Source: an uncultured Gammaproteobacteria bacterium (lineage in GTDB: Bacteria; Patescibacteriota; Patescibacteriia; SG8-24). From it: a DNA stretch of 64,000 nt. The stretch is taken from assembly GCA_964626205.1 (NCBI GenBank), contig CAZVED010000004.1:2163-66162 (forward strand). The letters run 5' to 3'. The position numbers were made by a program, and so were the translations under genes. Positions 18,812-29,874 of this stretch are shown piece after piece. Within the stretch, counting starts at the first letter, position 1; each line of letters starts with the position of its first letter. The notes beneath the pieces were generated by a model. That model had not been told where the DNA came from. It saw only the letters and a list, made by a program, of their open reading frames with translations, and made no database searches.

Positions 18812-18899
18812 ATGTTGTGCCTGCCGCGCTCCATCCGAGGGTCTTTTACCACGGACGGAGATTAGCATGGCTTTGGTAAGCCGTCAACCGTCAAAAGGG

Positions 18900-21124: not shown

Positions 21125-23356
21125 ATGGACGTGAAGTCCTTCGAAACCCAATGGGGCGGCAAGACCCTCACCGTCGAGACGGGAAAGCTTGCACTTCCCG
21201 CCGGCGGTGCCTGTACCGTCCGCTACGGCGACACCGTCGTCCTCGCGACCTGCACCAAATCCCCGAACCCTCGTGAAGGCGTCTCGTTCTTCCCGCTATC
21301 CGTCGACTACGAAGAGCGCCTCTACGCCTCCGGAAAGATCAAGGGCTCTCGTTTCATCAAGCGCGAAGGCCGCCCCGGCGACGAGGCCGTCATGACGGGC
21401 CGCATGATTGACCGCGCATTGCGACCGCTCTTCCCGGATGGCATCGTACATGAGGTACAAGTCATCGTCACCGTGCTCTCCGCGGATCTCGAAAACAATT
21501 CCGATATCGTTGGCATGGTCGCTGCGTTCATCGCGGTCTCTATCTCCGATATCCCCTGGAACGGCCCCATCGGCGGCATCCGCGTCGGTCGTGTGGATGG
21601 CGAATGGGTCATCAACCCGACGTTCGAGGCAATGAAGAAGTCCGACATGGATGTGGTCGTCGCGGGCACTCCGGACAAGGTCGTCATGCTCGAGGCAAAC
21701 GGGAACGAGATTCCCGAAGACGACATGGACGCCGCCATCCAATTCGGACAGAAGCACCTCAAGGAGATCATCGATCTTGCGAACCAGGTTGTCACCACGG
21801 TCGGTAAGAAAAAGTGCAGCATCGCCGAGCTCTCCGACTCTGCAGACGACGAAGAGACGAAGAAAGAGCGGGCAGAGCTCGTTGAGAAAGCGCGTACGTT
21901 CCTCGCCGATCGCATCGAGAAGGCTTTCTTCGGCGCGCCGAAAGAGACCAAATCCGAACGACGCGATGCGAAAGCCCGCCTGAAGCACGAACTTGATGAA
22001 ATGCTCAAAGAGCAGCAGGTCGGGAAGGACAAGCGCAAGATCGCGACGGACTGCGTCGAAGAGCTCGTTGAAGAAGCCGTCTCCAAGGCCATCCTCGAGC
22101 GCGGCCAACGTGTCGACGGACGCTCGCTCACGCAGATCCGCGAGCTCGGTGCCGAAGTCGGCCTGCTTCCACGCACGCACGGCTCCGGGTTCTTCCGCCG
22201 CGGTGAGACGCACGTGCTCTCCACTGTGACGCTCGGCTCCCCGAGTGCCGCACAGATCATCGATGGCATGGAAGAGGAGTACAAGAAGCGCTACATGCAC
22301 CACTACTACTTCCCACACTACTCCGTGGGCGAAACAGGGCGCATGGGCGGCACCGGGCGCCGCGAGATTGGTCACGGAGGCCTCGCTGAGCGCGCGCTCA
22401 TGCCGGTGCTTCCGGACAAAGAGACGTTCCCTTATACCATCCGCGTCGTCTCTGAAGTCGTCTCCTCCAACGGTTCCAGCTCCCAGGCATCCGCTTGCGG
22501 CTCTACGCTCGCGCTCATGGACGCAGGTGTCCCGCTGAAGCGCCCGGTGGCGGGTATCGCCATGGGCATCGCGACGGACGAAGCGACCGGCGCCTACAAG
22601 ATCCTCACGGATCTCCAGGACCTCGAAGACGGCGAGGGGGGCATGGACTTCAAGATTGCCGGCACCGAGAAAGGCATCACGACCATTCAGCTCGACACCA
22701 AGACCAAGGGTCTCTCGCACGCCATCGTCACCGAAACGCTCGCCCAGGCACGTCCGGCACGCATGCAGGTTCTCGGCGAGATGGCCAAGGCCATCGCCGC
22801 GCCGCGTGCAGAACTTTCTCAGTACGCCCCACGCCTCGTGAGCTTCTCGATTCCGATCGACAAGATCCGTGAAGTCATCGGTCCGGGCGGCAAGGTCATC
22901 AACGAGATCATCGACGCGACCGGCGTCACGATCGACATCGAACAAGATGGCATCGTCACTGTCTGCTCCACTTCTGGCCCAGCCATGGACGAAGCGGTCA
23001 CGCGCATCAAGCGCATCGTGAAGGGTGTCGAAGCCGGCGAGCTCTTCAAGGAGGCGAAGATTGTTCGCATCATGGACTTCGGCGCATTCGCCGCACTCAC
23101 CGCGACGCAGGACGGTCTCATTCACATCTCCGAACTCGCGCCGTGGCGTGTCGCCCGTGTAACGGACGTCGTCAACGTCGGCGACATCGTTCCAGTGAAG
23201 GTGGTTGCCATCGACGACATGGGTCGCGTGAACCTCTCACTCAAACGCGCGAAGGAAGAGCTCGGCATTCCGCAGGAAAAACCGGAAGGCTACGACGAGA
23301 ACAGCGGGGGCGATGACCGCCGAGGTCCGCCGAGCCGAGGTCCGCGCAAGTTCTAA
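21125..23356 (+). CDS. pnp: Polynucleotide phosphorylase (two RNase PH domains, KH, S1)
   Basis: The protein is 743 aa, with a typical PNPase N-terminus MDVKSFETQWGGKTLTVETGKLA... and C-terminal KH and S1 regions. Confidence 0.95.
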   Translation: MDVKSFETQWGGKTLTVETGKLALPAGGACTVRYGDTVVLATCTKSPNPREGVSFFPLSVDYEERLYASGKIKGSRFIKREGRPGDEAVMTGRMIDRALRPLFPDGIVHEVQVIVTVLSADLENNSDIVGMVAAFIAVSISDIPWNGPIGGIRVGRVDGEWVINPTFEAMKKSDMDVVVAGTPDKVVMLEANGNEIPEDDMDAAIQFGQKHLKEIIDLANQVVTTVGKKKCSIAELSDSADDEETKKERAELVEKARTFLADRIEKAFFGAPKETKSERRDAKARLKHELDEMLKEQQVGKDKRKIATDCVEELVEEAVSKAILERGQRVDGRSLTQIRELGAEVGLLPRTHGSGFFRRGETHVLSTVTLGSPSAAQIIDGMEEEYKKRYMHHYYFPHYSVGETGRMGGTGRREIGHGGLAERALMPVLPDKETFPYTIRVVSEVVSSNGSSSQASACGSTLALMDAGVPLKRPVAGIAMGIATDEATGAYKILTDLQDLEDGEGGMDFKIAGTEKGITTIQLDTKTKGLSHAIVTETLAQARPARMQVLGEMAKAIAAPRAELSQYAPRLVSFSIPIDKIREVIGPGGKVINEIIDATGVTIDIEQDGIVTVCSTSGPAMDEAVTRIKRIVKGVEAGELFKEAKIVRIMDFGAFAALTATQDGLIHISELAPWRVARVTDVVNVGDIVPVKVVAIDDMGRVNLSLKRAKEELGIPQEKPEGYDENSGGDDRRGPPSRGPRKF

Positions 23357-24788
23357 GCAGCATCGTGTGCGGTCGGTCCGAGTCATCACGACGCATCGCA
23401 CGACACAAGAGGGTGATGGACGCGCGTCGTCCGTCACCCTCTTCGTGCTAGGTATCGCCGCAATCGTCGCGGGAAGTTTCTTGTATGCCTACCGCGTCTC
23501 CCGCCCACTCGACACGATTGCCTCCTACGTTCCTGCTGAAGCCACTGCATACGTGCATTTACGTACGACGCAGCAGCATACGCTCGCGTACGGCTACACA
23601 CTCTTCGACATTCCCGCAGGCCTCACACCAAACGAAGCTGCCGCATTCCTCCTCGAAGACGCTGATGGTGGTGGTCGCTGGACGACCGTTCTTGCATGGA
23701 ACGACACTGCCTCCATCACTGCTGCGGAGCGCGACATCATCACAACGACCGATGTTGCATGGCTTAATGACGCGACGCTGGTTGTCCGGCACGACGATGG
23801 CAAGATGGTGTCGACGATGCTCGCCGCCAAAGCATCCGGAAACTCAATCAATGCCGGCGCTGTCGCGAACGGACTCCGACAAATGCGCTCCGTCGCACCG
23901 CTGCAGGGGTATGTTGCGGACGCGCGATTGTCAGACGACGCTACAGCTCCGACAGCGACCGTTTTCGGAACGACCTTCGATGACGACGGTGGCTCCTTGA
24001 CGCTCCTCCTGCCACTCGCCACAATCCCGAACGAATTACCACTTCTTGGGTTCGGCCTCGCAACCGCCGCGCGCAGTACGACCTCCTTGTCCGCGCGAGC
24101 CGCCGTTGTTTCCGACGCATCCGTCATCCATCGCCGCCTGAGCGGTGCTGCCGCCCCACCCTTCTTCGTGAACGACGATTTCATTGCCGCCGCCCGTGAC
24201 TACGGTGTGCCAGCCGACACCTCCATCGATGTCGCCTTTAGGGCACTTCTCGAGGGCCTTCACCCCCCTTTCACGTTCTCTGCCACCATAGACGGCACCG
24301 CACTGCTTCACCTGCCATCTACGGATCCCGAAGCCTTAGCGGACGACATCGACCATTTCCTCGGCGCGCTCTTCCCGGCAAAACATCCGCTCACCCTTCC
24401 GGACGGCACGACAACCAACGAGTTCCGTAGGGATACGACCCTGCCCGCGGTCATGACAGTAAACGACTCCTCCCCATGGCCGATGCGCGTTTCAGCGACT
24501 CACGTCTCTGGACTACAGCTCTTCATCTCCCCGGATGACAACCATGGCAGCCTCCTGGCAAGCTCTGTCGAGGGTCTTTCTCCATCAATGTCCCCCACCG
24601 TCACTTCGGACTTGAGCAACAGGTGTCGGCACCTTTCAAGCTTCGCCAAAGAATACCTCCTCACCGACAGCCTTCCAATACCCCTGAAAGAGGGCGGGCT
24701 GCTCTATTCCGATCCCCTGGGGCGACTTGGTTTGGGACAGGTGGTTTTGCTATATCTCGATGACGGCGTGTCCGTTGTCTGCGGATGA
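23313..24788 (+). CDS. Hypothetical membrane-anchored extracytoplasmic protein; the true start is uncertain (possibly GTG ~23364)
   Basis: A single TM helix (VTLFVLGIAAIVAGSFLYAY) is followed by a ~440-aa Ala/Thr/Asp-rich domain. The listed ORF start overlaps the pnp 3' end by 44 nt. Confidence 0.4.
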   Translation: MTAEVRRAEVRASSKQHRVRSVRVITTHRTTQEGDGRASSVTLFVLGIAAIVAGSFLYAYRVSRPLDTIASYVPAEATAYVHLRTTQQHTLAYGYTLFDIPAGLTPNEAAAFLLEDADGGGRWTTVLAWNDTASITAAERDIITTTDVAWLNDATLVVRHDDGKMVSTMLAAKASGNSINAGAVANGLRQMRSVAPLQGYVADARLSDDATAPTATVFGTTFDDDGGSLTLLLPLATIPNELPLLGFGLATAARSTTSLSARAAVVSDASVIHRRLSGAAAPPFFVNDDFIAAARDYGVPADTSIDVAFRALLEGLHPPFTFSATIDGTALLHLPSTDPEALADDIDHFLGALFPAKHPLTLPDGTTTNEFRRDTTLPAVMTVNDSSPWPMRVSATHVSGLQLFISPDDNHGSLLASSVEGLSPSMSPTVTSDLSNRCRHLSSFAKEYLLTDSLPIPLKEGGLLYSDPLGRLGLGQVVLLYLDDGVSVVCG

Positions 24789-25347
24789 TGTAGGTATCTT
24801 GTGGATAAATAAGCCTGCTCTGGGTAAAAATGAACAACTTCCGTGCTCAGTAAAAAAGTACGCCATCAACAGGCGTATTTTTTTGCTTCAACAAAGCGAT
24901 TTTATCGCTTGAGTACGCTTATTGACCATCAGCCTTATTCGTGGTATAGTTCCTTTGTCGTTCATTACAACGCTTCGAGAAGGAGAGCTGAGCCGGACCT
25001 CTGTCAGGCCCATTTCCCCTTCTCTACTACTCCTGCACTCCTCATCGAAATCAAAAACAAAATTCGAAAAAGGTGCCGGTATCCCTCATTATAAGGCTTC
25101 GGCCTTCGAGGGTTGCTACCAGGGAATGGTAAAGAAGTATCGTTCATTTACGCTGAAGTATCCGATCGATGCGGACGTGATGCTTGTCCTCTTACGAGGC
25201 CAAACACCACGTCCGACATAGACGCATACTCTAGCGCCTTCTAAGGTGCAGGTGATGCCAATAGTCTTCTATAAGGGCGTTCCTGCACCTTTTCAATTTC
25301 CAAAAATCCGCTGCTGCCGCCGCCCACCTCATCTCTGGCAGCTTACC

Positions 25348-25374
25348 GAAAGACCCCAAAAGGGGTCTTTTTTA
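25348..25374 (+). terminator. Rho-independent terminator (agacccc-aaaa-ggggtct-tttttt) inside a gene-free region
   Basis: The stem-loop is perfect and has a U-run. It lies ~70 nt upstream of the dksA-like start. Confidence 0.6.
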
Positions 25375-25439
25375 GGCCCCTGTTTGCGTTCCTTAGATGG
25401 AAACTATAGACTTCCTTTGCTGACGCTTGGTGCAGCGTA

Positions 25440-25820
25440 ATGACCCCTATGAACAAGGCATTCATCAAGGAAATGCAGGAGACGCTGGAGGCGGAAAAGA
25501 CCCGCTTAGAGGCCGAGCTCTCTGAGTTCTCGACCAAGAACCCGGCGAATTCCAGCGACTACACCGCGGACTTCCCGAACATGGGCGACAAAGAAGACGA
25601 GAACGCCGAAGAGGTCGCTACCTACAGCACGAACCTGACTCTCGAGCGCACGCTCGAAGCCTCTCTTCGCGATACGGAGAAGGCACTCAAACGTATCGCT
25701 GGGGGCACCTACGGTATCTGCAAATACTGCCAGAAAGAGATCGACGAGAAGCGCCTTCGCGCGCGGCCGTCATCCAGCTCCTGCGTCGAATGCAAGAAAT
25801 CATTCACTCAAGAGATGTAG
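25440..25820 (+). CDS. DksA/TraR-family C4 zinc-finger protein
   Basis: An N-terminal coiled-coil is followed by a C-terminal CKYCQKEIDEKRL...CVECKK motif (CxxC-N17-CxxC). Confidence 0.75.
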   Translation: MTPMNKAFIKEMQETLEAEKTRLEAELSEFSTKNPANSSDYTADFPNMGDKEDENAEEVATYSTNLTLERTLEASLRDTEKALKRIAGGTYGICKYCQKEIDEKRLRARPSSSSCVECKKSFTQEM

Positions 25821-26236
25821 CTCGCGCGCGGTCCATCCTCTGGGCCGCGTTTGCGATTCTGGCCGCAGACCGCGTCGCTAAGATGCTGGTTGCACTCGAC
25901 GTGTCCGCTCAAATCCTTCCGGGGGTCGATTTCCGCCTGTTTCGGAATGACGGTATCGCCTTCAGCATTCCCGTGCCGGATATCGTCTTCTGGCCGCTCG
26001 CCGTCGCGGCATTCCTCGCGCTCATCCGTCTCTGGAATACCTTGCGAGAGCGACAGGACGAGATCGGTTCTGCCTTCGTCACGATGATCCTGCTCGGTGC
26101 GCTCTCCAACATCGCCGACAAGCTGCTCACCGGAGCCATCACCGACTATCTCATTTTCGCCGGACGGTCGGCAGTAAACCTCGCGGACGCCATGATCATC
26201 GGCGGCGCGCTCGCGCTCCTCTTACGCAAGACATAA
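25790..26236 (+). CDS. lspA: Lipoprotein signal peptidase (signal peptidase II)
   Basis: The sequences AAFAILAADRVAK, FRNDGIAFS and NIADKLL...AVNLADAMI match LspA (Asn/Asp catalytic motifs). The gene overlaps the dksA-like gene by 31 nt. Confidence 0.8.
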   Translation: MQEIIHSRDVARARSILWAAFAILAADRVAKMLVALDVSAQILPGVDFRLFRNDGIAFSIPVPDIVFWPLAVAAFLALIRLWNTLRERQDEIGSAFVTMILLGALSNIADKLLTGAITDYLIFAGRSAVNLADAMIIGGALALLLRKT

Positions 26237-26268
26237 AAAAAGCCCGCCCTCATCCGGGCGGGTTTTGC
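26235..26268. terminator. Bidirectional terminator (gcccgccc-tcatcc-gggcggg + ttttg, A-run before)
   Basis: The hairpin sits between lspA (+) and the convergent minus-strand small-gene cluster. Confidence 0.6.
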
Positions 26269-26291
26269 GTTCGAGACGCATGGCTTCGTCG

Positions 26292-26684
26292 TCACTTCGA
26301 CAGGTTCGCGATGGCACCACGAGTCGCGGCGACCTCCTTTGCAACGGAGGCGGCATCCGCTTCCAGGTCCGCCTTGAGTCGCTCGAGGAGCGGCAACAGA
26401 TCCACCCTGAGCACCGTGACCTGCTTCGCGATCTTCTCCGCGACGATCGAGGCGATGCGGAGCTTTGCCGGAAGCAACGACTTCGCGGCCTCCAACGACT
26501 CCTGCACCCACTTCGATTGTTTCGGCGTGAGCGGGACCTTGGCGACAGCCGTTCCGTCTGCGAACGCCTCGATAGCGCAGGACACGACGACAAGCTTGTG
26601 GCGAATCGACGCCTGGCGCTCCTCGAGCCTGCTCGCGACCATGGTCAACTCCGCAATCTTGCGCTGCGTTTCCGTTGTGGGCAT
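26292..26684 (-). CDS. Hypothetical soluble coiled-coil protein (~130 aa)
   Basis: AGGAGG-N7-ATG sits at 26684. The protein is MPTTETQRKIAELTMVASRLEERQASIRHKL... Confidence 0.45.
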   Translation of the reverse strand: MPTTETQRKIAELTMVASRLEERQASIRHKLVVVSCAIEAFADGTAVAKVPLTPKQSKWVQESLEAAKSLLPAKLRIASIVAEKIAKQVTVLRVDLLPLLERLKADLEADAASVAKEVAATRGAIANLSK

Positions 26685-26785
26685 TACACCCTCCTTCTGG
26701 CCGCTAAGAAGGCCGTGTCGGTAGCTTACCTTTCTGCACAAAAAAGAAAACCCCGGTACATGATCGAGGTTTATGGCACGCCGCA

Positions 26786-27088
26786 TTACCGCATCTCCTC
26801 ACGTTCGTCGACGATCTTCGTGCGCCACGCGAACAACGCCAACGGGAGACCAAGAACAAGAAGGACTGTGAGGCCTGGCAAGCCGAGAGATGCGAAGAGC
26901 ACCATCGCCGCGACGATCGCGGCGACACCCGCACCACCAACGATGCGCACGAACATGCCGAGTGCCACGTTCATCCCGATGCAGGTAAGAACGAAACCAT
27001 CGTGAACTTGAAGGAAACCCGCAAGGACCACGAAAGCGACAACACCGAACCCAAGAAGAAAGAGCAGGAAGTCCTTGTAACGCAACAT
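26786..27088 (-). CDS. Small membrane protein (~100 aa, 3 predicted TM)
   Basis: AAGGAGG-N5-ATG sits at 27088. The protein is MLRYKDFLLFLLGFGVVAFVVLAGF... Confidence 0.45.
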   Translation of the reverse strand: MLRYKDFLLFLLGFGVVAFVVLAGFLQVHDGFVLTCIGMNVALGMFVRIVGGAGVAAIVAAMVLFASLGLPGLTVLLVLGLPLALFAWRTKIVDEREEMR

Positions 27089-27152
27089 GACCACCTCCTT
27101 GCAGGACAGGTGAACGTAGCACAGAAACCCCGTGGCGTCAATCATTAACCAA

Positions 27153-27183
27153 CGAAAAAACCGTACCGGCAAGGCGGTACGGT
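27153..27183 (-). terminator. Terminator for the downstream small gene (ccgtaccg-gcaag-gcggtacgg; T-run on minus strand)
   Basis: The hairpin is followed by an A6 run on the plus strand. Confidence 0.5.
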
Positions 27184-27192
27184 TTCCGAAAG

Positions 27193-27450
27193 TCATCGCG
27201 GCGGCTCTTGCGTGGCTCGACAACCCGGGCACCCGTCCTCACCGAACGGAAGGCCGTGCAGCGCGCAATGCTGCGGCCCGAGCTCTCTGCGGTTTGCCGC
27301 CATGCGCATCGAAACGAGCACGGTCAGGCTGACGAGAGCGATGAAGAGCGAGATGACAGACTCCAGCAATCGGACCTCTTCCCGTATTCCGATAAGAAGT
27401 CCTACAACGATAGCAACGGAAAGTGCGGCTTCGATGAGCGCTTGTCGCAT
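27193..27450 (-). CDS. Small membrane protein (85 aa, 2 TM)
   Basis: GGAGG-N5-ATG sits at 27450. The protein is MRQALIEAALSVAIVVGLLIGIREEVRLLESVISLFIALVSLTVLV. Confidence 0.45.
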   Translation of the reverse strand: MRQALIEAALSVAIVVGLLIGIREEVRLLESVISLFIALVSLTVLVSMRMAANRRELGPQHCALHGLPFGEDGCPGCRATQEPPR

Positions 27451-27465
27451 GATGACCTCCGTGCG

Positions 27466-27636
27466 CTAGTGTCCCTGCAGCAAATGCTGGTACAGGTACT
27501 GCTCGTAGCCGGACCTCATGTTTCCGAGCATCATCATGCCGATGTCGTGCATGCTGGTGACGAGCAGGAACCCCACGGCACCGACCGCCAGCAGCGCTGC
27601 CGCTACCAGACAAACGGACCCGATGGCGGACAACAT
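27466..27636 (-). CDS. Small membrane protein (~56 aa, 1 TM); an alternative TTG start ~27660 would give ~64 aa
   Basis: The protein is MLSAIGSVCLVAAALLAVGAVGFLLVTSMHD... AAGGAGG lies 5 nt upstream of an in-frame TTG. Confidence 0.35.
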   Translation of the reverse strand: MLSAIGSVCLVAAALLAVGAVGFLLVTSMHDIGMMMLGNMRSGYEQYLYQHLLQGH

Positions 27637-27741
27637 TTCGTTCTTCGGACGTTCGTTTTCCAAACGATCCTCCTTGGTGGTTGTCCCGCGATGTTCCGAG
27701 GGACGTTCCAGTATGCACCCTGACGCCTCGTCCGTCAATAC

Positions 27742-27771
27742 GAAAAAACCGCACCCAGAAAAGGGTGCGGT
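27742..27771 (-). terminator. Terminator (ccgcaccc-agaaaa-gggtgcgg with A6 on plus = U-run on minus)
   Basis: It lies downstream of the 48-aa gene. Confidence 0.55.
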
Positions 27772-27777
27772 CGACTG

Positions 27778-27924
27778 CTACTGCGGACGCCGAAGGCGGC
27801 GAATGGCGCTAGCGTAGATGACGAGTCCGAGAAGTCCGAGAAGGACAACTTTCTTGACGATGGCGACAGCGACGAGCGTACCGGCGACGGCAATACCGCC
27901 GAATACGAACAGCTTCATGCGCAT
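27778..27924 (-). CDS. Small membrane protein (48 aa) not in the ORF track
   Basis: AAGGAGG-N5-ATG. The protein is MRMKLFVFGGIAVAGTLVAVAIVKKVVLLGLLGLVIYASAIRRLRRPQ. Confidence 0.4.
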   Translation of the reverse strand: MRMKLFVFGGIAVAGTLVAVAIVKKVVLLGLLGLVIYASAIRRLRRPQ

Positions 27925-27936
27925 GAGAACCTCCTT

Positions 27937-28206
27937 TCAACGATGTCTGGCGTGGTGCGCCGCACCACTGGTTCGTGGTGGTGCGGAATACCCGCCGTAT
28001 CGACCCTGCTCCTCACCCTCGCTCCAAACCGCCGATCCGAGGACGGCGAGGCAGGTGCCGAGGACGATCACGATTCCGGAAACGACGGTGGTACCCGTGT
28101 TGTTGTACGACTGCTGAGTGACGAACCAGCAGCCAGCGACGATCAAGACGAGGCCGCCGAGGAAAAGCACCGCACCGACCAAGCAAAAGAACAGTTCAGC
28201 GATCAC
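27937..28206 (-). CDS. Small membrane protein (~89 aa, 2 TM) with a GTG start
   Basis: AAGGAGG-N5-GTG sits at 28204-28206. The protein is VIAELFFCLVGAVLFLGGLVLIVAGCWFVTQQ...IVIVLGTCLAVLGSAVW. Confidence 0.4.
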   Translation of the reverse strand: MIAELFFCLVGAVLFLGGLVLIVAGCWFVTQQSYNNTGTTVVSGIVIVLGTCLAVLGSAVWSEGEEQGRYGGYSAPPRTSGAAHHARHR

Positions 28207-28359
28207 AACATCCTCCTTTTTTGCGCCCACTTTCAAGCAGTGCGCAGGTCGCGAACATAGCACGAAGCTACCCGAGCGTCAAGCCTACGCGACAGGCGCT
28301 TGCGCCTTCCGAGCTTCGCTGCTAGATAGGCCGCGTCACCTTTAGCCCCAACACCTCCT

Positions 28360-29874
28360 ATGCCCGCAAAGACCTATTCCTCTGCACTTGTCGGACTCGA
28401 TGCTGTACCCGTCGAGATTGAGGCCGACATTGCACCGGGACTCCCATCGTTCACTGTCGTCGGTCTTCCTGATACGACCGTGAAAGAATCCCGCGAACGC
28501 ATCCGCGCCGCATTCCGAAATTGCGGCCTCCCTTTTCCGCGCACGCGTCTCACGGTAAACCTCGCGCCAGCGCACATCCGGAAGGAAGGGCCTGCCTATG
28601 ACCTTCCCATCGCCGTGGCCATCCTCGCCGCACAAGACGCGCTTCCTGCGACAGCACTCACGACACCGCACGTCTTCCTCGGCGAGTTGGCTCTGAATGG
28701 CACACTCCGCCCGATTACCGGTGCGCTTCCTGCGGCATTAGGAGCGGCAGAGCACGGTATCCGTACGCTCTGTCTGCCCGCAGCAAATGCGGAAGAGGCA
28801 TCGCTTGCTCCAAGCGTCGACATCATTCCCATCATCGATCTTCCCCAACTCGTTCGACATTTCCAAGGAACGGAACCTGTTCCCGTATTCGCTAGGACGA
28901 CGACGTCTGTGGCAGCACCCGAAGCTGTCGCTGCTGACTTCGCGTCCGTCAAAGGGCAGTCTGCAGCGAAACGCGCGCTGGAGATCGCCGCTGCCGGTAA
29001 CCACAACATCCTTCTCTCCGGACCTCCCGGTGCCGGCAAGACCATGCTCTCCCGTGCGCTCCCGGGGATCCTACCTCCCATGACGACCGAGGAAACGCTC
29101 GAAGTGACAAAGATTCATTCCGTAACCGGCCTCACCTCCGGGGGCCGCATCGTCACCACGCGACCGTTCCGAACACCGCACCACTCCGCGTCAGGAGCAG
29201 CGCTCATCGGCGGCGGGTCGTGGCCGAAGCCTGGCGAGGTGAGCCTCGCTCATCGCGGAGTGCTCTTCCTCGACGAATTTCCTGAGTTCGCCCGCACCAC
29301 GCTCGAGTGCTTGCGCCAGCCGCTGGAGGACGGCATCGTTACCATCTCCCGCGCGAACGGCACGTTGCGCTTCCCGGCGGAATTCATGCTCGTTGCCGCG
29401 ATGAACCCGTGTCCTTGCGGCATGTCATCGGTGGATGGCTCCTCCTGCTCCTGTACGGCAGCGCAGGTCGCGGCATACGACAAGCGCGTCTCCGGGCCAC
29501 TACTCGACCGCATCGACCTGCATGTGCACGTTCCAAAAACGACGGTCGGCGATCTTTTCGATGCAACAAACGCCGAGCCCTCGTCCGCCGTACGCGCACG
29601 CGTCGAAGCATGTCGACGCGTGCAACAGAAAAGGTTCGCCGGTACGCGAATCCGTACCAATGCGGACATGGGGCATCGCGACGTGCAGAAACACTGCCGT
29701 ATCGACGTCGTCTCACGAGACATGCTCCGTGCGGCAGCGGAAAAAATGGGGCTCTCGGCACGCGCCTGCACGCGTGTCCTCAAGCTAGCGCGCACCATCG
29801 CCGATCTTGCCACCGAACCAGACATCAGCGCCTCACATCTTGCGGAAGCGCTACAGTTCCGGGAACGGCGCTAA
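28360..29874 (+). CDS. comM: YifB/ComM family Mg-chelatase-like AAA+ ATPase
   Basis: It has an N-terminal Lon-like domain, Walker A (GPPGAGKTMLSRALPGILP), Walker B (VLFLDEFPEF) and a C-terminal Mg-chelatase subunit ChlI-like region. Confidence 0.9.
   Translation: MPAKTYSSALVGLDAVPVEIEADIAPGLPSFTVVGLPDTTVKESRERIRAAFRNCGLPFPRTRLTVNLAPAHIRKEGPAYDLPIAVAILAAQDALPATALTTPHVFLGELALNGTLRPITGALPAALGAAEHGIRTLCLPAANAEEASLAPSVDIIPIIDLPQLVRHFQGTEPVPVFARTTTSVAAPEAVAADFASVKGQSAAKRALEIAAAGNHNILLSGPPGAGKTMLSRALPGILPPMTTEETLEVTKIHSVTGLTSGGRIVTTRPFRTPHHSASGAALIGGGSWPKPGEVSLAHRGVLFLDEFPEFARTTLECLRQPLEDGIVTISRANGTLRFPAEFMLVAAMNPCPCGMSSVDGSSCSCTAAQVAAYDKRVSGPLLDRIDLHVHVPKTTVGDLFDATNAEPSSAVRARVEACRRVQQKRFAGTRIRTNADMGHRDVQKHCRIDVVSRDMLRAAAEKMGLSARACTRVLKLARTIADLATEPDISASHLAEALQFRERR

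What the first reader, a model, noticed from the sequence alone, without database searches (positions are those of the whole stretch)
26292..28206. Run of six consecutive small (48-130 aa), mostly membrane-protein genes between lspA and comM
Each gene has its own near-consensus Shine-Dalgarno (AAGGAGG-N5-start), and several have their own terminators. Five of the six are predicted 1-3-TM hydrophobic proteins. Two are missing from or mis-started in the ORF track. Such tandem micro-membrane-protein cassettes are uncharacterised. They could be stress or toxin-like peptides, regulatory subunits of membrane complexes (analogous to KdpF/AcrZ-type small proteins), or a bacteriocin/immunity-like set. 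Their location next to comM, a known island-insertion hotspot in other bacteria, adds interest.
Basis: partly seen in the sequence, partly recalled or inferred. Interest (0 to 1): 0.6.

Follow-up and report, generated by a model that had tools for sequence, protein, structure and literature searches.

The report
Clade-specific array of small membrane-protein genes
Six small genes between lspA and comM are real: five encode membrane proteins and one a coiled-coil protein, they occur only in one narrow group of uncultured Patescibacteria, they evolve very fast, match no known family, and their function is still unknown.

Summary
Six minus-strand genes (130, 100, 85, 65, 48 and 89 aa) fill 26292-28206. 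Each has a GGAGG-type Shine-Dalgarno exactly 5 nt before its start. They form four promoter/terminator-bounded units: g6-g5, g4-g3, g2 and g1. Five products are 1-4-TM proteins; g1 is a soluble coiled coil. They are genuine genes: five of the six families recur in the same order between lspA and comM on the four relatives' contigs I could read, and two more contigs without DNA show the same layout of gene lengths. Conserved features include a C-x2-H-x8-9-C-x2-C-R-x2-x-EPP tail in g3. No family matches Pfam, NCBIfam, PADLOC, PHROGs, PDB, phages, plasmids or viral contigs. An exhaustive profile search of 1.84 billion proteins found only about eight g3 relatives. The cassette diverges far faster than its flanks (30-42% versus 94% ComM identity in one pair). 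The lspA-comM interval carries different cargo in more distant relatives. My best reading is a lineage-restricted, fast-evolving accessory membrane module, possibly one small complex. I found no signature of toxins, bacteriocins or phage or defence genes. Function remains inferred. Interest is modest. In passing I found a well-supported, apparently undescribed structured RNA of about 350 nt upstream of dksA (24922-25305).

The parts
28254..28282 (-). Promoter-like site for the g6-g5 unit: TTGACG-N14-TGC-TATGTT (extended -10)
   Evidence: The pattern TTGACG-N14/15-TGC-WAYNYT occurs twice in 64 kb against 0.01 expected by chance. Both sites lie in this cluster.
27937..28206 (-). g6: 89 aa, GTG start, 2 TM, polar loop TQQSYNNTGTT, charged C-tail
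   Evidence: this exact 89-aa product is in the public gene calls. Homologues lie at L084 702-941 and L082 9599-9847.
27778..27924 (-). g5: 48 aa, TM hairpin with a KK turn and an RRLRR tail; starts 12 nt after g6
   Evidence: It is the best conserved family (35-54% identity to relatives, present in L081-L084).
27740..27772 (-). Intrinsic terminator after g5 (10-bp stem plus U6)
   Evidence: (-20.3 kcal/mol, z -4.64).
27710..27738 (-). Promoter-like site for the g4-g3 unit: TTGACG-N17-CATACT, preceded by TGC
   Evidence: Relatives have an equivalent terminator-promoter spacer.
27466..27663 (-). g4: 65 aa, TTG start, 1 TM, conserved C-terminal motif SM(M/L/I)MLG(Q/N)(M/I)(R)xGYE
   Evidence: this exact 65-aa product is in the public gene calls.
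27193..27450 (-). g3: 85 aa, TM hairpin plus a C-terminal knuckle (inferred cytoplasmic) with invariant C62, H65, C74, C77, R78 and E82-P83-P84; starts 15 nt after g4
   Evidence: alignments; AF2 pLDDT 88.6: helices 2-22 and 28-57, then knuckle and short helix; only about 8 family members found.
27150..27187 (-). Intrinsic terminator after g3
   Evidence: -18.3 kcal/mol, z -3.25. It is 75% identical over 32 nt to the g5 terminator (family D4).
27113..27141 (-). Promoter-like site for g2: TTGACG-N14-TGC-TACGTT
26786..27088 (-). g2: 100 aa, 3-4 TM; accessory member, with a homologue only in L082
   Evidence: (31% identity over 91 aa, E 1e-7 to L082 8071-8385).
26738..26772 (-). Weak terminator-like hairpin plus U-tract after g2
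   Evidence: z 0.14, not better than shuffles. Relatives have a clearer terminator at this position.
26723..26728 (-). Putative -10 (TAAGCT) of g1, followed by the conserved 5'UTR block GCTACCGACAYGRCC
   Evidence: Direct comparison of the spacers before g1 in the window, L081 and L083. Inference only.
26292..26684 (-). g1: 130 aa, soluble and all-helical (predicted antiparallel coiled coil), conserved N-terminus MPTxET
   Evidence: (single-sequence AF2, pLDDT 70: helices 4-42, 54-67, 71-129). The conserved N-terminus supports the 130-aa start over the 164-aa one.
26243..26262 (-). Terminator after g1, shared back to back with the end of lspA
   Evidence: z -2.14.

Best explanation
Shown. The six ORFs are genuine protein-coding genes arranged as four tandem units, each with its own promoter and terminator: g6-g5, g4-g3, g2 and g1. 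They encode five small integral membrane proteins and one soluble coiled-coil protein. The families occur only in one narrow, uncultured Patescibacteria clade, whose nearest named relatives are Ca. Uhrbacteria. They sit in a fixed order in the lspA-comM interval. g5, g4, g3 and g1 form a conserved core, and g6, g2 and a 124-130-aa protein I call gX are accessory.

Inferred.
- The core products work together at the cytoplasmic membrane as a small hetero-oligomeric module.
- The TM helices serve mainly as anchors and evolve almost freely.
- The constrained parts lie outside the bilayer, probably on the cytoplasmic face. They are the metal-binding C-x2-H...C-x2-C knuckle and EPPR end of g3, the Met-rich helix of g4, the basic turn and tail of g5, and the coiled coil g1 as a peripheral partner.

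The most likely role is an accessory scaffolding or regulatory membrane module of the KdpF/AcrZ type. I think a toxin, bacteriocin or phage cassette is less likely. The biochemical function is not known.
For: Real genes.
- All six have a Shine-Dalgarno at a fixed 5-nt spacing.
- The codon score favours the proposed frame.
- The exact products of g3, g4, g5 and g6 are in the public gene calls.
- Open reading frames, lengths, TM counts and Shine-Dalgarno sites are retained in L081-L084 despite 28-56% identity and saturated synonymous sites.

Linked function.
- The gene order is the same on every contig that covers it.
- g5, g4 and g3 are always found together.
- Adjacent genes overlap by 4 nt, which suggests translational coupling: g5/g4 in L081 and L083, and g5/gX and g3/g2 in L082.

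Conserved parts lie outside the TM segments (alignments). The g3 model is confident: a TM hairpin plus a C-terminal knuckle, pLDDT 88.6.

Expression signals. Three promoter-like sites have the same form as the site upstream of the tRNA pair near 18859. Terminators are described. Relatives have the same terminator-promoter-SD spacers.

No matches. None of the six hits PADLOC or PHROGs. Of the searches I ran, g3 and g4 profiles found nothing in viral contigs, g1 nothing in phage records and g3 nothing in plasmids. No flanking repeats or integrase mark the interval.
Against: - There is no direct evidence of expression or of physical interaction.
- Each unit has its own promoter and terminator, which one obligate complex would not need.
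- pN/pS is high (0.4-1.0). For several pairs it cannot be told apart from neutrality at this divergence.
- Gene content varies: g2, g6 and gX come and go, so stoichiometry cannot be strict.
- Membrane topology rests only on hydropathy and the positive-inside rule.
- Metal binding by g3 is inferred from four invariant ligand residues and a model without metal.
- The g1 model is single-sequence with moderate confidence, and its fold matches are generic coiled coils.
Confidence: 0.45

Rival explanations
1. Variable-islet cargo with a conflict-related role, such as phage exclusion or defence, surface variation or host interaction. The cassette is kept as highly divergent alleles by diversifying or frequency-dependent selection, or by recombination.
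For: L081 and L083 share 94% ComM identity, and 70-96% nucleotide identity over most of NfeD and ComM, yet their cassette proteins are only 30-42% identical. Nucleotide identity drops sharply to 40-68% at the cassette edge. Similarity among cassettes does not follow similarity among ComM proteins: L081's g5 is the outlier although its ComM is nearly identical to L083's. In more distant relatives the interval carries unrelated cargo: LexA plus a Y-family polymerase, a histidine kinase, a methyltransferase, or nothing.
Against: There are no PADLOC or PHROGs hits, and no integrase, att-like repeats or GC anomaly. The predicted extracellular loops are tiny, so little surface would be exposed to selection from outside. 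Fast divergence is also expected for TM helices and coiled coils under weak constraint. The conserved motifs are most likely intracellular.
Confidence: 0.2
2. Membrane-active toxin, holin or stress peptides. Each bicistronic pair (g6-g5 and g4-g3) would be a small hydrophobic killer with its modulator, similar to type I toxins, holin/antiholin pairs or Psp/Lia-type stress modules.
For: The proteins are short and very hydrophobic with basic tails (g5 is 48 aa). They are arranged in pairs and have strong stand-alone promoters and terminators.
Against: No antisense RNA or promoter signature was seen in the scan. The genes are single-copy, syntenic and chromosomally inherited within the clade. Nothing matches holin, Psp or toxin families above noise. 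The g1 fold search did not retrieve PspA/ESCRT-III. Constitutive sigma-70-like promoters of the same form as the tRNA promoter are unexpected for toxins.
Confidence: 0.12
3. A bacteriocin plus immunity gene set.
For: The only support is that the genes encode small hydrophobic peptides in tandem.
Against: There is no double-glycine or Sec-type leader with a conserved cleavage site. No ABC exporter, peptidase, modification enzyme or two-component regulator lies within the flanks. The conserved motifs are probably cytoplasmic tails.
Confidence: 0.03
4. Some or all of the ORFs are not translated, and the region is non-coding or decaying sequence.
For: pN/pS is near 1 for some pairs. The codon score is weak for g3, g4 and g6.
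Against: At dS of about 1, neutral sequence would not keep six open frames, their lengths, the fixed-spacing Shine-Dalgarno sites, the TM hydropathy and the invariant motifs in five lineages. The alternative frames are full of stop codons.
Confidence: 0.03

Closest known systems
Small accessory membrane subunits (KdpF, AcrZ, CydX, MgtS type)
   Same: They are 30-100 aa with one or two TM helices, and sequence constraint lies mostly outside the helix. By inference from my own knowledge of these proteins, they act by binding larger membrane partners.
   Different: No sequence or profile similarity was found. No transporter or oxidase partner gene is adjacent. Here several such genes are arrayed together with their own promoters, and one carries a metal-binding knuckle.
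Psp/Lia envelope-stress modules (PspA coiled coil plus small TM proteins PspB/C/D/G, LiaI/H)
   Same: Both combine a soluble coiled-coil protein with several small membrane proteins in one gene neighbourhood.
   Different: There are no Pfam or NCBIfam matches to PspA/B/C or LiaI. The g1 model's best matches are generic coiled coils (p85 iSH2, RipC), not PspA/Vipp1/ESCRT-III, and none reaches E 0.001. g1 is 130 aa, against about 220 aa for PspA.
Membrane-anchored zinc-finger regulators (ZAS anti-sigma factors, zf-HC2)
   Same: g3 joins TM segments to a small Cys/His metal-binding element that is predicted to be cytoplasmic.
   Different: The motif and its position differ: a C-terminal C-x2-H-x8-9-C-x2-C against the N-terminal H-x3-C-x2-C of ZAS factors. 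There is no zf-HC2 hit and no sigma-factor gene nearby.
Type I toxins and holins
   Same: They share the size, the hydrophobicity and the basic C-termini.
   Different: There is no family match, no antisense partner, no phage context, and the genes are inherited in synteny.
comM-targeted resistance islands (AbaR/Tn6022 family in Acinetobacter; from my own knowledge)
   Same: Variable cargo lies next to comM.
   Different: Those islands interrupt comM and carry transposition genes. Here comM is intact (504 aa, full-length Pfam architecture). No transposase, integrase or repeats flank the cassette.

Membership tests
Any curated protein family (Pfam-A, NCBIfam) | A profile match at or above the curated cut-off | tested here: not met
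   The best hits score 10-16 bits against cut-offs of 23-230 bits, and all are hydrophobic or coiled-coil noise.
Known anti-phage defence proteins (PADLOC) and phage protein families (PHROGs) | A significant profile match | tested here: not met
   PADLOC gave no hits at E<=1. PHROGs gave only E 0.07-0.8. The phage, plasmid and viral-contig searches I ran were also negative.
Bacterial lipoprotein (LspA substrate), considered for g6 because of the adjacent lspA | An N-terminal signal peptide with a positively charged n-region, followed by a lipobox [LVI][ASTVI][GAS]C | tested here: inconclusive
   g6 has IVAGC at residues 22-26 and L084 has VVAC, but L082 has CIGC. The n-regions are acidic (MIAE, MAD, MET), and a second TM helix follows the Cys (sequences read directly). 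A typical lipoprotein is unlikely.
Type IV pilin or competence pseudopilin | A prepilin leader ending in G, followed by F/M-T-L-I/L-E | tested here: not met
   None of the six sequences contains such a motif (sequences).
Class II bacteriocin precursor | A double-glycine leader (LSxxELxxIxGG) and a nearby C39-ABC exporter or immunity gene | tested here: not met
   No leader consensus is present in g4, g5 or g6. No exporter lies in the flanks.
PspA/IM30/ESCRT-III | A PspA_IM30 profile match or an ESCRT-III helical-hairpin fold match | tested here: not met
   There is no Pfam hit. Foldseek against the PDB returned only generic coiled coils at E>=0.1. The model is single-sequence (pLDDT 70), so this negative result is weak.
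ZAS-type anti-sigma factor (zf-HC2) | An N-terminal H-x3-C-x2-C motif and an adjacent ECF sigma gene | tested here: not met
   The g3 motif is C-terminal with different spacing. No sigma gene is present.
Type I toxin-antitoxin | An overlapping or adjacent antisense RNA, and toxicity on expression | not testable with these tools
   The scan showed no convergent promoter, but antisense transcription and toxicity need an experiment.
comM-inserted genomic island (AbaR-like) | An interrupted comM, transposition genes and terminal repeats | tested here: not met
   comM is intact, and there are no repeats or transposase.

The most novel reading that the evidence does not exclude
The cassette may be a previously unknown small-protein membrane machine specific to one Patescibacteria clade. 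It would be built around a membrane-tethered Cys/His metal knuckle (g3) and a Met/His-rich juxtamembrane helix (g4). It might sense or handle a metal such as Cu(I) or Zn; a relative carries two extremely Cys-rich proteins in the same cassette. It would be kept as sharply divergent alleles within otherwise near-identical chromosomal flanks, which implies diversifying selection or cassette exchange at a dedicated lspA-comM hotspot.
Probability: 0.12. Interest if true: 0.6.

Novelty: new variant of a known kind. Interest (0 to 1): 0.33.

Why it matters
Small membrane proteins are under-annotated everywhere. In Patescibacteria (CPR), most lineage-enriched protein families are unannotated membrane proteins (Méheust et al. 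2019, PMC6744442). This locus gives a clean, well-delimited example. It comprises five or six new families with exact starts, promoters, terminators, conserved motifs and a confident model for one member (g3). The cassette also diverges far faster than its flanks. If the products do form a complex, or handle a metal, that would add a new type of small-protein module. If not, the locus still serves as a calibrated case of orphan genes evolving fast under weak constraint. Either way the practical impact is limited, because the organism is uncultured and the clade is tiny.

Tried and rejected
- **comM scan of GTDB genomes.** The peptide patterns were too universal. None had homologues of the six genes.
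- **Word-index search with g1.** It found only g1 itself, although 30-40% homologues exist in the same collection, so that tool is not sensitive enough for these proteins.
- **Metagenome and viral-contig scans with the g3 and g4 profiles.** Nothing was found.
- **dN/dS.** Synonymous sites are saturated for most pairs and alignments are uncertain at 30% identity. The ratios are therefore only indicative.
- **Weak hit of g6 to the NfeD membrane domain (E 0.027).** NfeD genes sit at the same place in L081 and L083. I rejected a link because they are on the opposite strand and the hit is hydrophobic noise.
- **Rfam Leu_leader hit at 26236-26326 (23 bits against a cut-off of 50).** This is the terminator hairpin, not a leader.
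- **Mobile-element signatures (repeats, integrase, GC shift).** None were found.
Full report
**1. What is in the sequence**

Reading 25600-28800 on both strands and listing every candidate start with its upstream bases gives six minus-strand genes:

| Gene | Coordinates (with stop) | Length | Start |
|---|---|---|---|
| g1 | 26292-26684 | 130 aa | ATG |
| g2 | 26786-27088 | 100 aa | ATG |
| g3 | 27193-27450 | 85 aa | ATG |
| g4 | 27466-27663 | 65 aa | TTG |
| g5 | 27778-27924 | 48 aa | ATG |
| g6 | 27937-28206 | 89 aa | GVG... GTG |

- Five genes have AAGGAGG and g3 has ACGGAGG, in every case exactly 5 nt before the start codon.
- The window holds 19 AAGGAGG sites on both strands. Nine precede a start with an ORF of at least 30 aa, and five of those nine are here.
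- This is the only place in the 64 kb where small ORFs combine such a ribosome-binding site with hydrophobic segments.
- I trained a codon-usage model on the window's long ORFs. It scores the proposed frame best or tied-best for all six. The result is clear for g1, g2 and g5. It is weaker for g3, g4 and g6, where the in-register antisense frame ties, as is usual in GC-rich DNA. The other frames are full of stops.
- Hydropathy gives no TM in g1, 3-4 in g2, 2 in g3, 1 in g4, a hairpin in g5 and 2 in g6.
- The Shine-Dalgarno-supported products of g3, g4, g5 and g6 are exactly the sequences on record for this contig, a 101,677-bp NCBI record. g1 is recorded with a longer 164-aa start.
- The conserved N-terminus MPTxET in the g1 homologues supports the 130-aa start.

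**2. Transcription architecture**

The three spacers of 101-114 nt each hold a hairpin plus U-tract, and each is followed by a Shine-Dalgarno. Two of them have a clear promoter-like site.

- Terminators after g5 and g3 are strong (z -4.6 and -3.3). The one after g1 is shared with lspA. The one after g2 is weak.
- Promoter-like sites upstream of g6 and g2 read TTGACG-N14-TGC-TAYGTT. This pattern occurs twice in the window against 0.01 expected. The site before g4 reads TTGACG-N17-CATACT.
- A site of the same form lies upstream of the tRNA-Arg/His pair at 18859-18887. I take these to be ordinary housekeeping-type promoters, which is an inference.
- g5 starts 12 nt after g6, and g3 starts 15 nt after g4.
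- The units are therefore [g6 g5], [g4 g3], [g2] and [g1]. g1 has only a weak -10 (TAAGCT), followed by a conserved 5'UTR block.

**3. Context**

Pfam identifies the flanks. On one side lie PNPase, a 491-aa hypothetical protein, a DksA/TraR zinc-finger protein and LspA. On the other lie ComM/YifB, a hypothetical protein, an M23-LysM peptidase, an HD-domain protein and an H+-pyrophosphatase. GC content in the interval is unremarkable. No flanking repeats or recombinase genes mark the interval.

**4. Relatives**

- None of the six proteins matches Pfam, NCBIfam, PADLOC or PHROGs above noise.
- The closest ComM proteins in a collection of 5.8 billion proteins are 76-82% identical. The next level is 60-66% and includes Ca. 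Uhrbacteria MAGs. The organism is therefore an uncultured member of the Patescibacteria.
- The contigs carrying the four closest ComM proteins (L081-L084) have the same backbone. Between lspA and comM they also have a run of small minus-strand genes.
- BLASTP and family HMMs show that these genes are homologues of the window's genes, in the same order:

| Contig | Gene content from the comM side to the lspA side |
|---|---|
| Window | g6, g5, g4, g3, g2, g1 |
| L082 | g6, g5, gX (124 aa, TM), g4, g3, g2, two Cys-rich proteins, g1 |
| L084 | g6, g5, gX, then the contig ends |
| L081 and L083 | a plus-strand NfeD/S49 gene, then g5, g4, g3, g1 |

- A profile search with g3 found one more member. 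An exhaustive HMM search of 1.84 billion representative proteins found three further small members plus three long, multi-stretch hits that I take to be spurious.
- Two of the new members lie on contigs from JGI sample 3300056388. No DNA was available for them, but the gene lengths follow the L082-type layout next to a partial gene at the comM position.
- The families therefore occur on about seven contigs of one small clade. They are absent from the next ring of relatives (L085-L088), from 80 more distant comM loci, and from the phage, plasmid and viral-contig searches I ran.

**5. Conserved features**

- **g3.** Eight members share an invariant C-x2-H-x8-9-C-x2-C-R-x2-x-E-P-P motif close to the C-terminus, after two variable TM helices. 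AlphaFold2 with this alignment gives a confident model (pLDDT 88.6): a TM hairpin, then a knuckle and a short helix. The basic stretch after TM2 places the knuckle in the cytoplasm by the positive-inside rule, which is an inference.
- **g4.** It keeps the motif SM(M/L/I)MLG(Q/N)(M/I)(R)xGYE just after its TM helix.
- **g5.** It keeps a KK turn and an R-rich tail.
- **g1.** It keeps MPTxET, an A..AF..G...AK..L.P block and P.L..L..DL. A single-sequence model (pLDDT 70) is an antiparallel coiled coil.
- **Fold searches.** Searches against the PDB return only generic helical hairpins or coiled coils for g1 and g3.
- **Gene overlaps.** In relatives, adjacent genes overlap by 4 nt: g5/g4 in L081 and L083, and g5/gX and g3/g2 in L082. 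The terminator-promoter-SD spacers recur at equivalent positions.

**6. Rate of evolution**

- Against ComM at 76-82% and DksA at 88-90% identity, the small proteins are 23-54% identical. This is similar to the lineage-specific 491-aa neighbour, at 40-46%.
- pN/pS is 0.4-1.0, against 0.1-0.3 for ComM. Synonymous sites are saturated and alignments are uncertain at this divergence, so these ratios are only indicative.
- Six frames stay open, with their lengths, Shine-Dalgarno sites, hydropathy and invariant motifs, at dS of about 1. That is not what neutral sequence would do. I read this as purifying selection on a few positions and on overall physicochemical character.
- One observation goes beyond this. 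L081 and L083 have 94% identical ComM proteins and 70-96% nucleotide identity over most of NfeD and ComM. Yet their g1, g3, g4 and g5 are only 30-42% identical, and nucleotide identity falls abruptly to 40-68% at the cassette edge.
- Similarity among the g5 proteins also does not follow similarity among the ComM proteins.
- Either the cassette evolves in bursts, or alleles are exchanged by recombination. I could not tell which.

**7. The interval is variable in the wider lineage**

- At 62-64% ComM identity, the same backbone carries three unrelated plus-strand genes and a histidine kinase in L086. In L087 it carries a Y-family polymerase, LexA and two other genes.
- L088, a Ca. Uhrbacteria MAG, is rearranged: comM faces a methyltransferase gene and lspA.
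- In a more distant metagenomic relative, L090, lspA and comM lie about 400 nt apart.
- The cassette is therefore clade-specific cargo of a variable interval. It is not an insertion into comM.

**8. Interpretation**

- *Shown:* the genes are real, each carries its own expression signals, they are syntenically conserved in a narrow clade, and they have no known relatives.
- *Inferred:* the core products (g5, g4, g3, with g1) act together at the membrane. The functional surfaces would be the conserved tails outside the bilayer, probably cytoplasmic.
- *In favour of the inference:* the fixed gene order, the constant co-occurrence of g5, g4 and g3, the overlapping genes and the location of the conserved motifs.
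- *Against it:* the separate promoters and terminators, and the variable gene content.
- *Rivals:* a conflict-related variable cassette is the main rival, because of the sharp divergence boundary. Toxin, holin and bacteriocin readings lack every specific signature I could test. A non-coding reading is very unlikely.
- *Speculation only:* a metal-related role is conceivable. It would draw on the g3 Cys/His knuckle, the Met/His-rich g4 motif and the two very Cys-rich proteins in the L082 cassette.

**9. Novelty and interest**

These are new protein families. However, unannotated small membrane proteins are the rule in CPR genomes (PMC6744442), and nothing here yet points to a new mechanism. I rate the finding as a new variant of a known kind, with modest interest.

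**10. Seen in passing**

The 650-nt ORF-free gap upstream of dksA (24789-25439) is conserved at the nucleotide level even in relatives with 49-62% ComM identity.

- It has a strong promoter, TTGACC-N17-TATAGT with an extended -10, at 24922-24950.
- The structured core spans 25006-25291 and ends in a conserved GC-rich hairpin plus U-tract.
- On six sequences, 94% of cells in a 72-pair structure are paired, against 42-46% when the partners are slid. 32 pairs show compensatory changes, against 2-8 in the slid controls, and no shuffle out of 500 reached the observed covariation score.
- A motif scan found six more metagenomic copies, all on contigs that carry the dksA-like gene, from about 290 nt to 1.9 kb away from it.
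- In an 11-sequence alignment, 24 of the 54 predicted pairs show compensatory changes.
- Rfam 15 has no match.
- This looks like an undescribed structured RNA of about 350 nt. It may deserve more attention than the cassette.

Noticed in passing
window 24922-25305 (+); also L081 4520-4913, L082 5460-5851, L086 2910-3308, L087 2299-2713, L088 5551-5964 (-), and L089-L094: A conserved structured RNA of about 350 nt with its own promoter (TTGACC-N17-TGG-TATAGT) and a terminator-like 3' hairpin, on the same contig as the dksA-like gene and from about 290 nt to 1.9 kb away from it. It has an invariant 14-bp long-range helix (CUUCUnUACUAnUCC with GGnnUGGUArAGAAG) and two long hairpins rich in compensatory changes. 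In the 72-pair structure, 94% of cells are paired against 42-46% in slid controls, and 32 pairs show compensatory changes. There is no Rfam 15 match. It is probably an undescribed ncRNA class of a Patescibacteria lineage.
   Followed up: partly
L081 5800-7200 versus L083 1-1550 (cassette), compared with L081 7200-9769 versus L083 1550-4097 (NfeD and ComM): Two contigs have 94% identical ComM proteins, but their homologous small-gene cassettes are only 30-42% identical in protein sequence. Nucleotide identity drops abruptly at the cassette edge. Similarity among the g5 proteins does not follow similarity among the ComM proteins. The cause is unresolved: allele exchange or burst-like divergence.
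   Followed up: partly
lspA-comM interval in L086 4280-9639, L087 3740-7383, L088 3922-4555 and L090 5551-5956: The interval between lspA and comM is a variable slot across the lineage. It holds a histidine kinase plus three small genes (L086), a Y-family polymerase plus LexA plus others (L087), a methyltransferase in a rearranged locus (L088), or almost nothing (L090). In L083, a LexA gene follows g1 where the window has lspA.
   Followed up: partly
L082 7250-7979 (-): Two overlapping genes inside the relative's cassette encode very Cys/His-rich soluble proteins (98 and 146 aa). They carry repeated CxxC...H...C spacings that suggest metal-binding modules. They have no family match. They are absent from the window.
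   Followed up: no
window 18859-18887 (-), 27113-27141 (-), 28254-28282 (-), 24922-24950 (+): The tRNA-Arg/His pair, the structured RNA and the small-gene units share one promoter form: TTGAC(G/C), a 17-nt spacer ending in TG(C/G), then TAnnnT. This may be the clade's strong housekeeping promoter consensus.
   Followed up: no
window 23313-24788 (+): A 491-aa protein with no Pfam domain is conserved in position next to PNPase across the whole lineage, but it evolves fast (19-46% identity). Its longest-ORF start overlaps the end of the PNPase gene by 44 nt, so the true start may lie further downstream.
   Followed up: no
window 27152-27183 and 27740-27771: The terminators after g3 and g5 are 75% identical over 32 nt, and both are followed by a TTGACG promoter (family D4). 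This suggests that the terminator-promoter spacer was duplicated as the array was built.
   Followed up: no
window 28330-28362: comM has no GGAGG-type ribosome-binding site on its own strand before the ATG at 28360. The AGGAGG seen there lies on the opposite strand and precedes only a 9-codon ORF (read directly).
   Followed up: no
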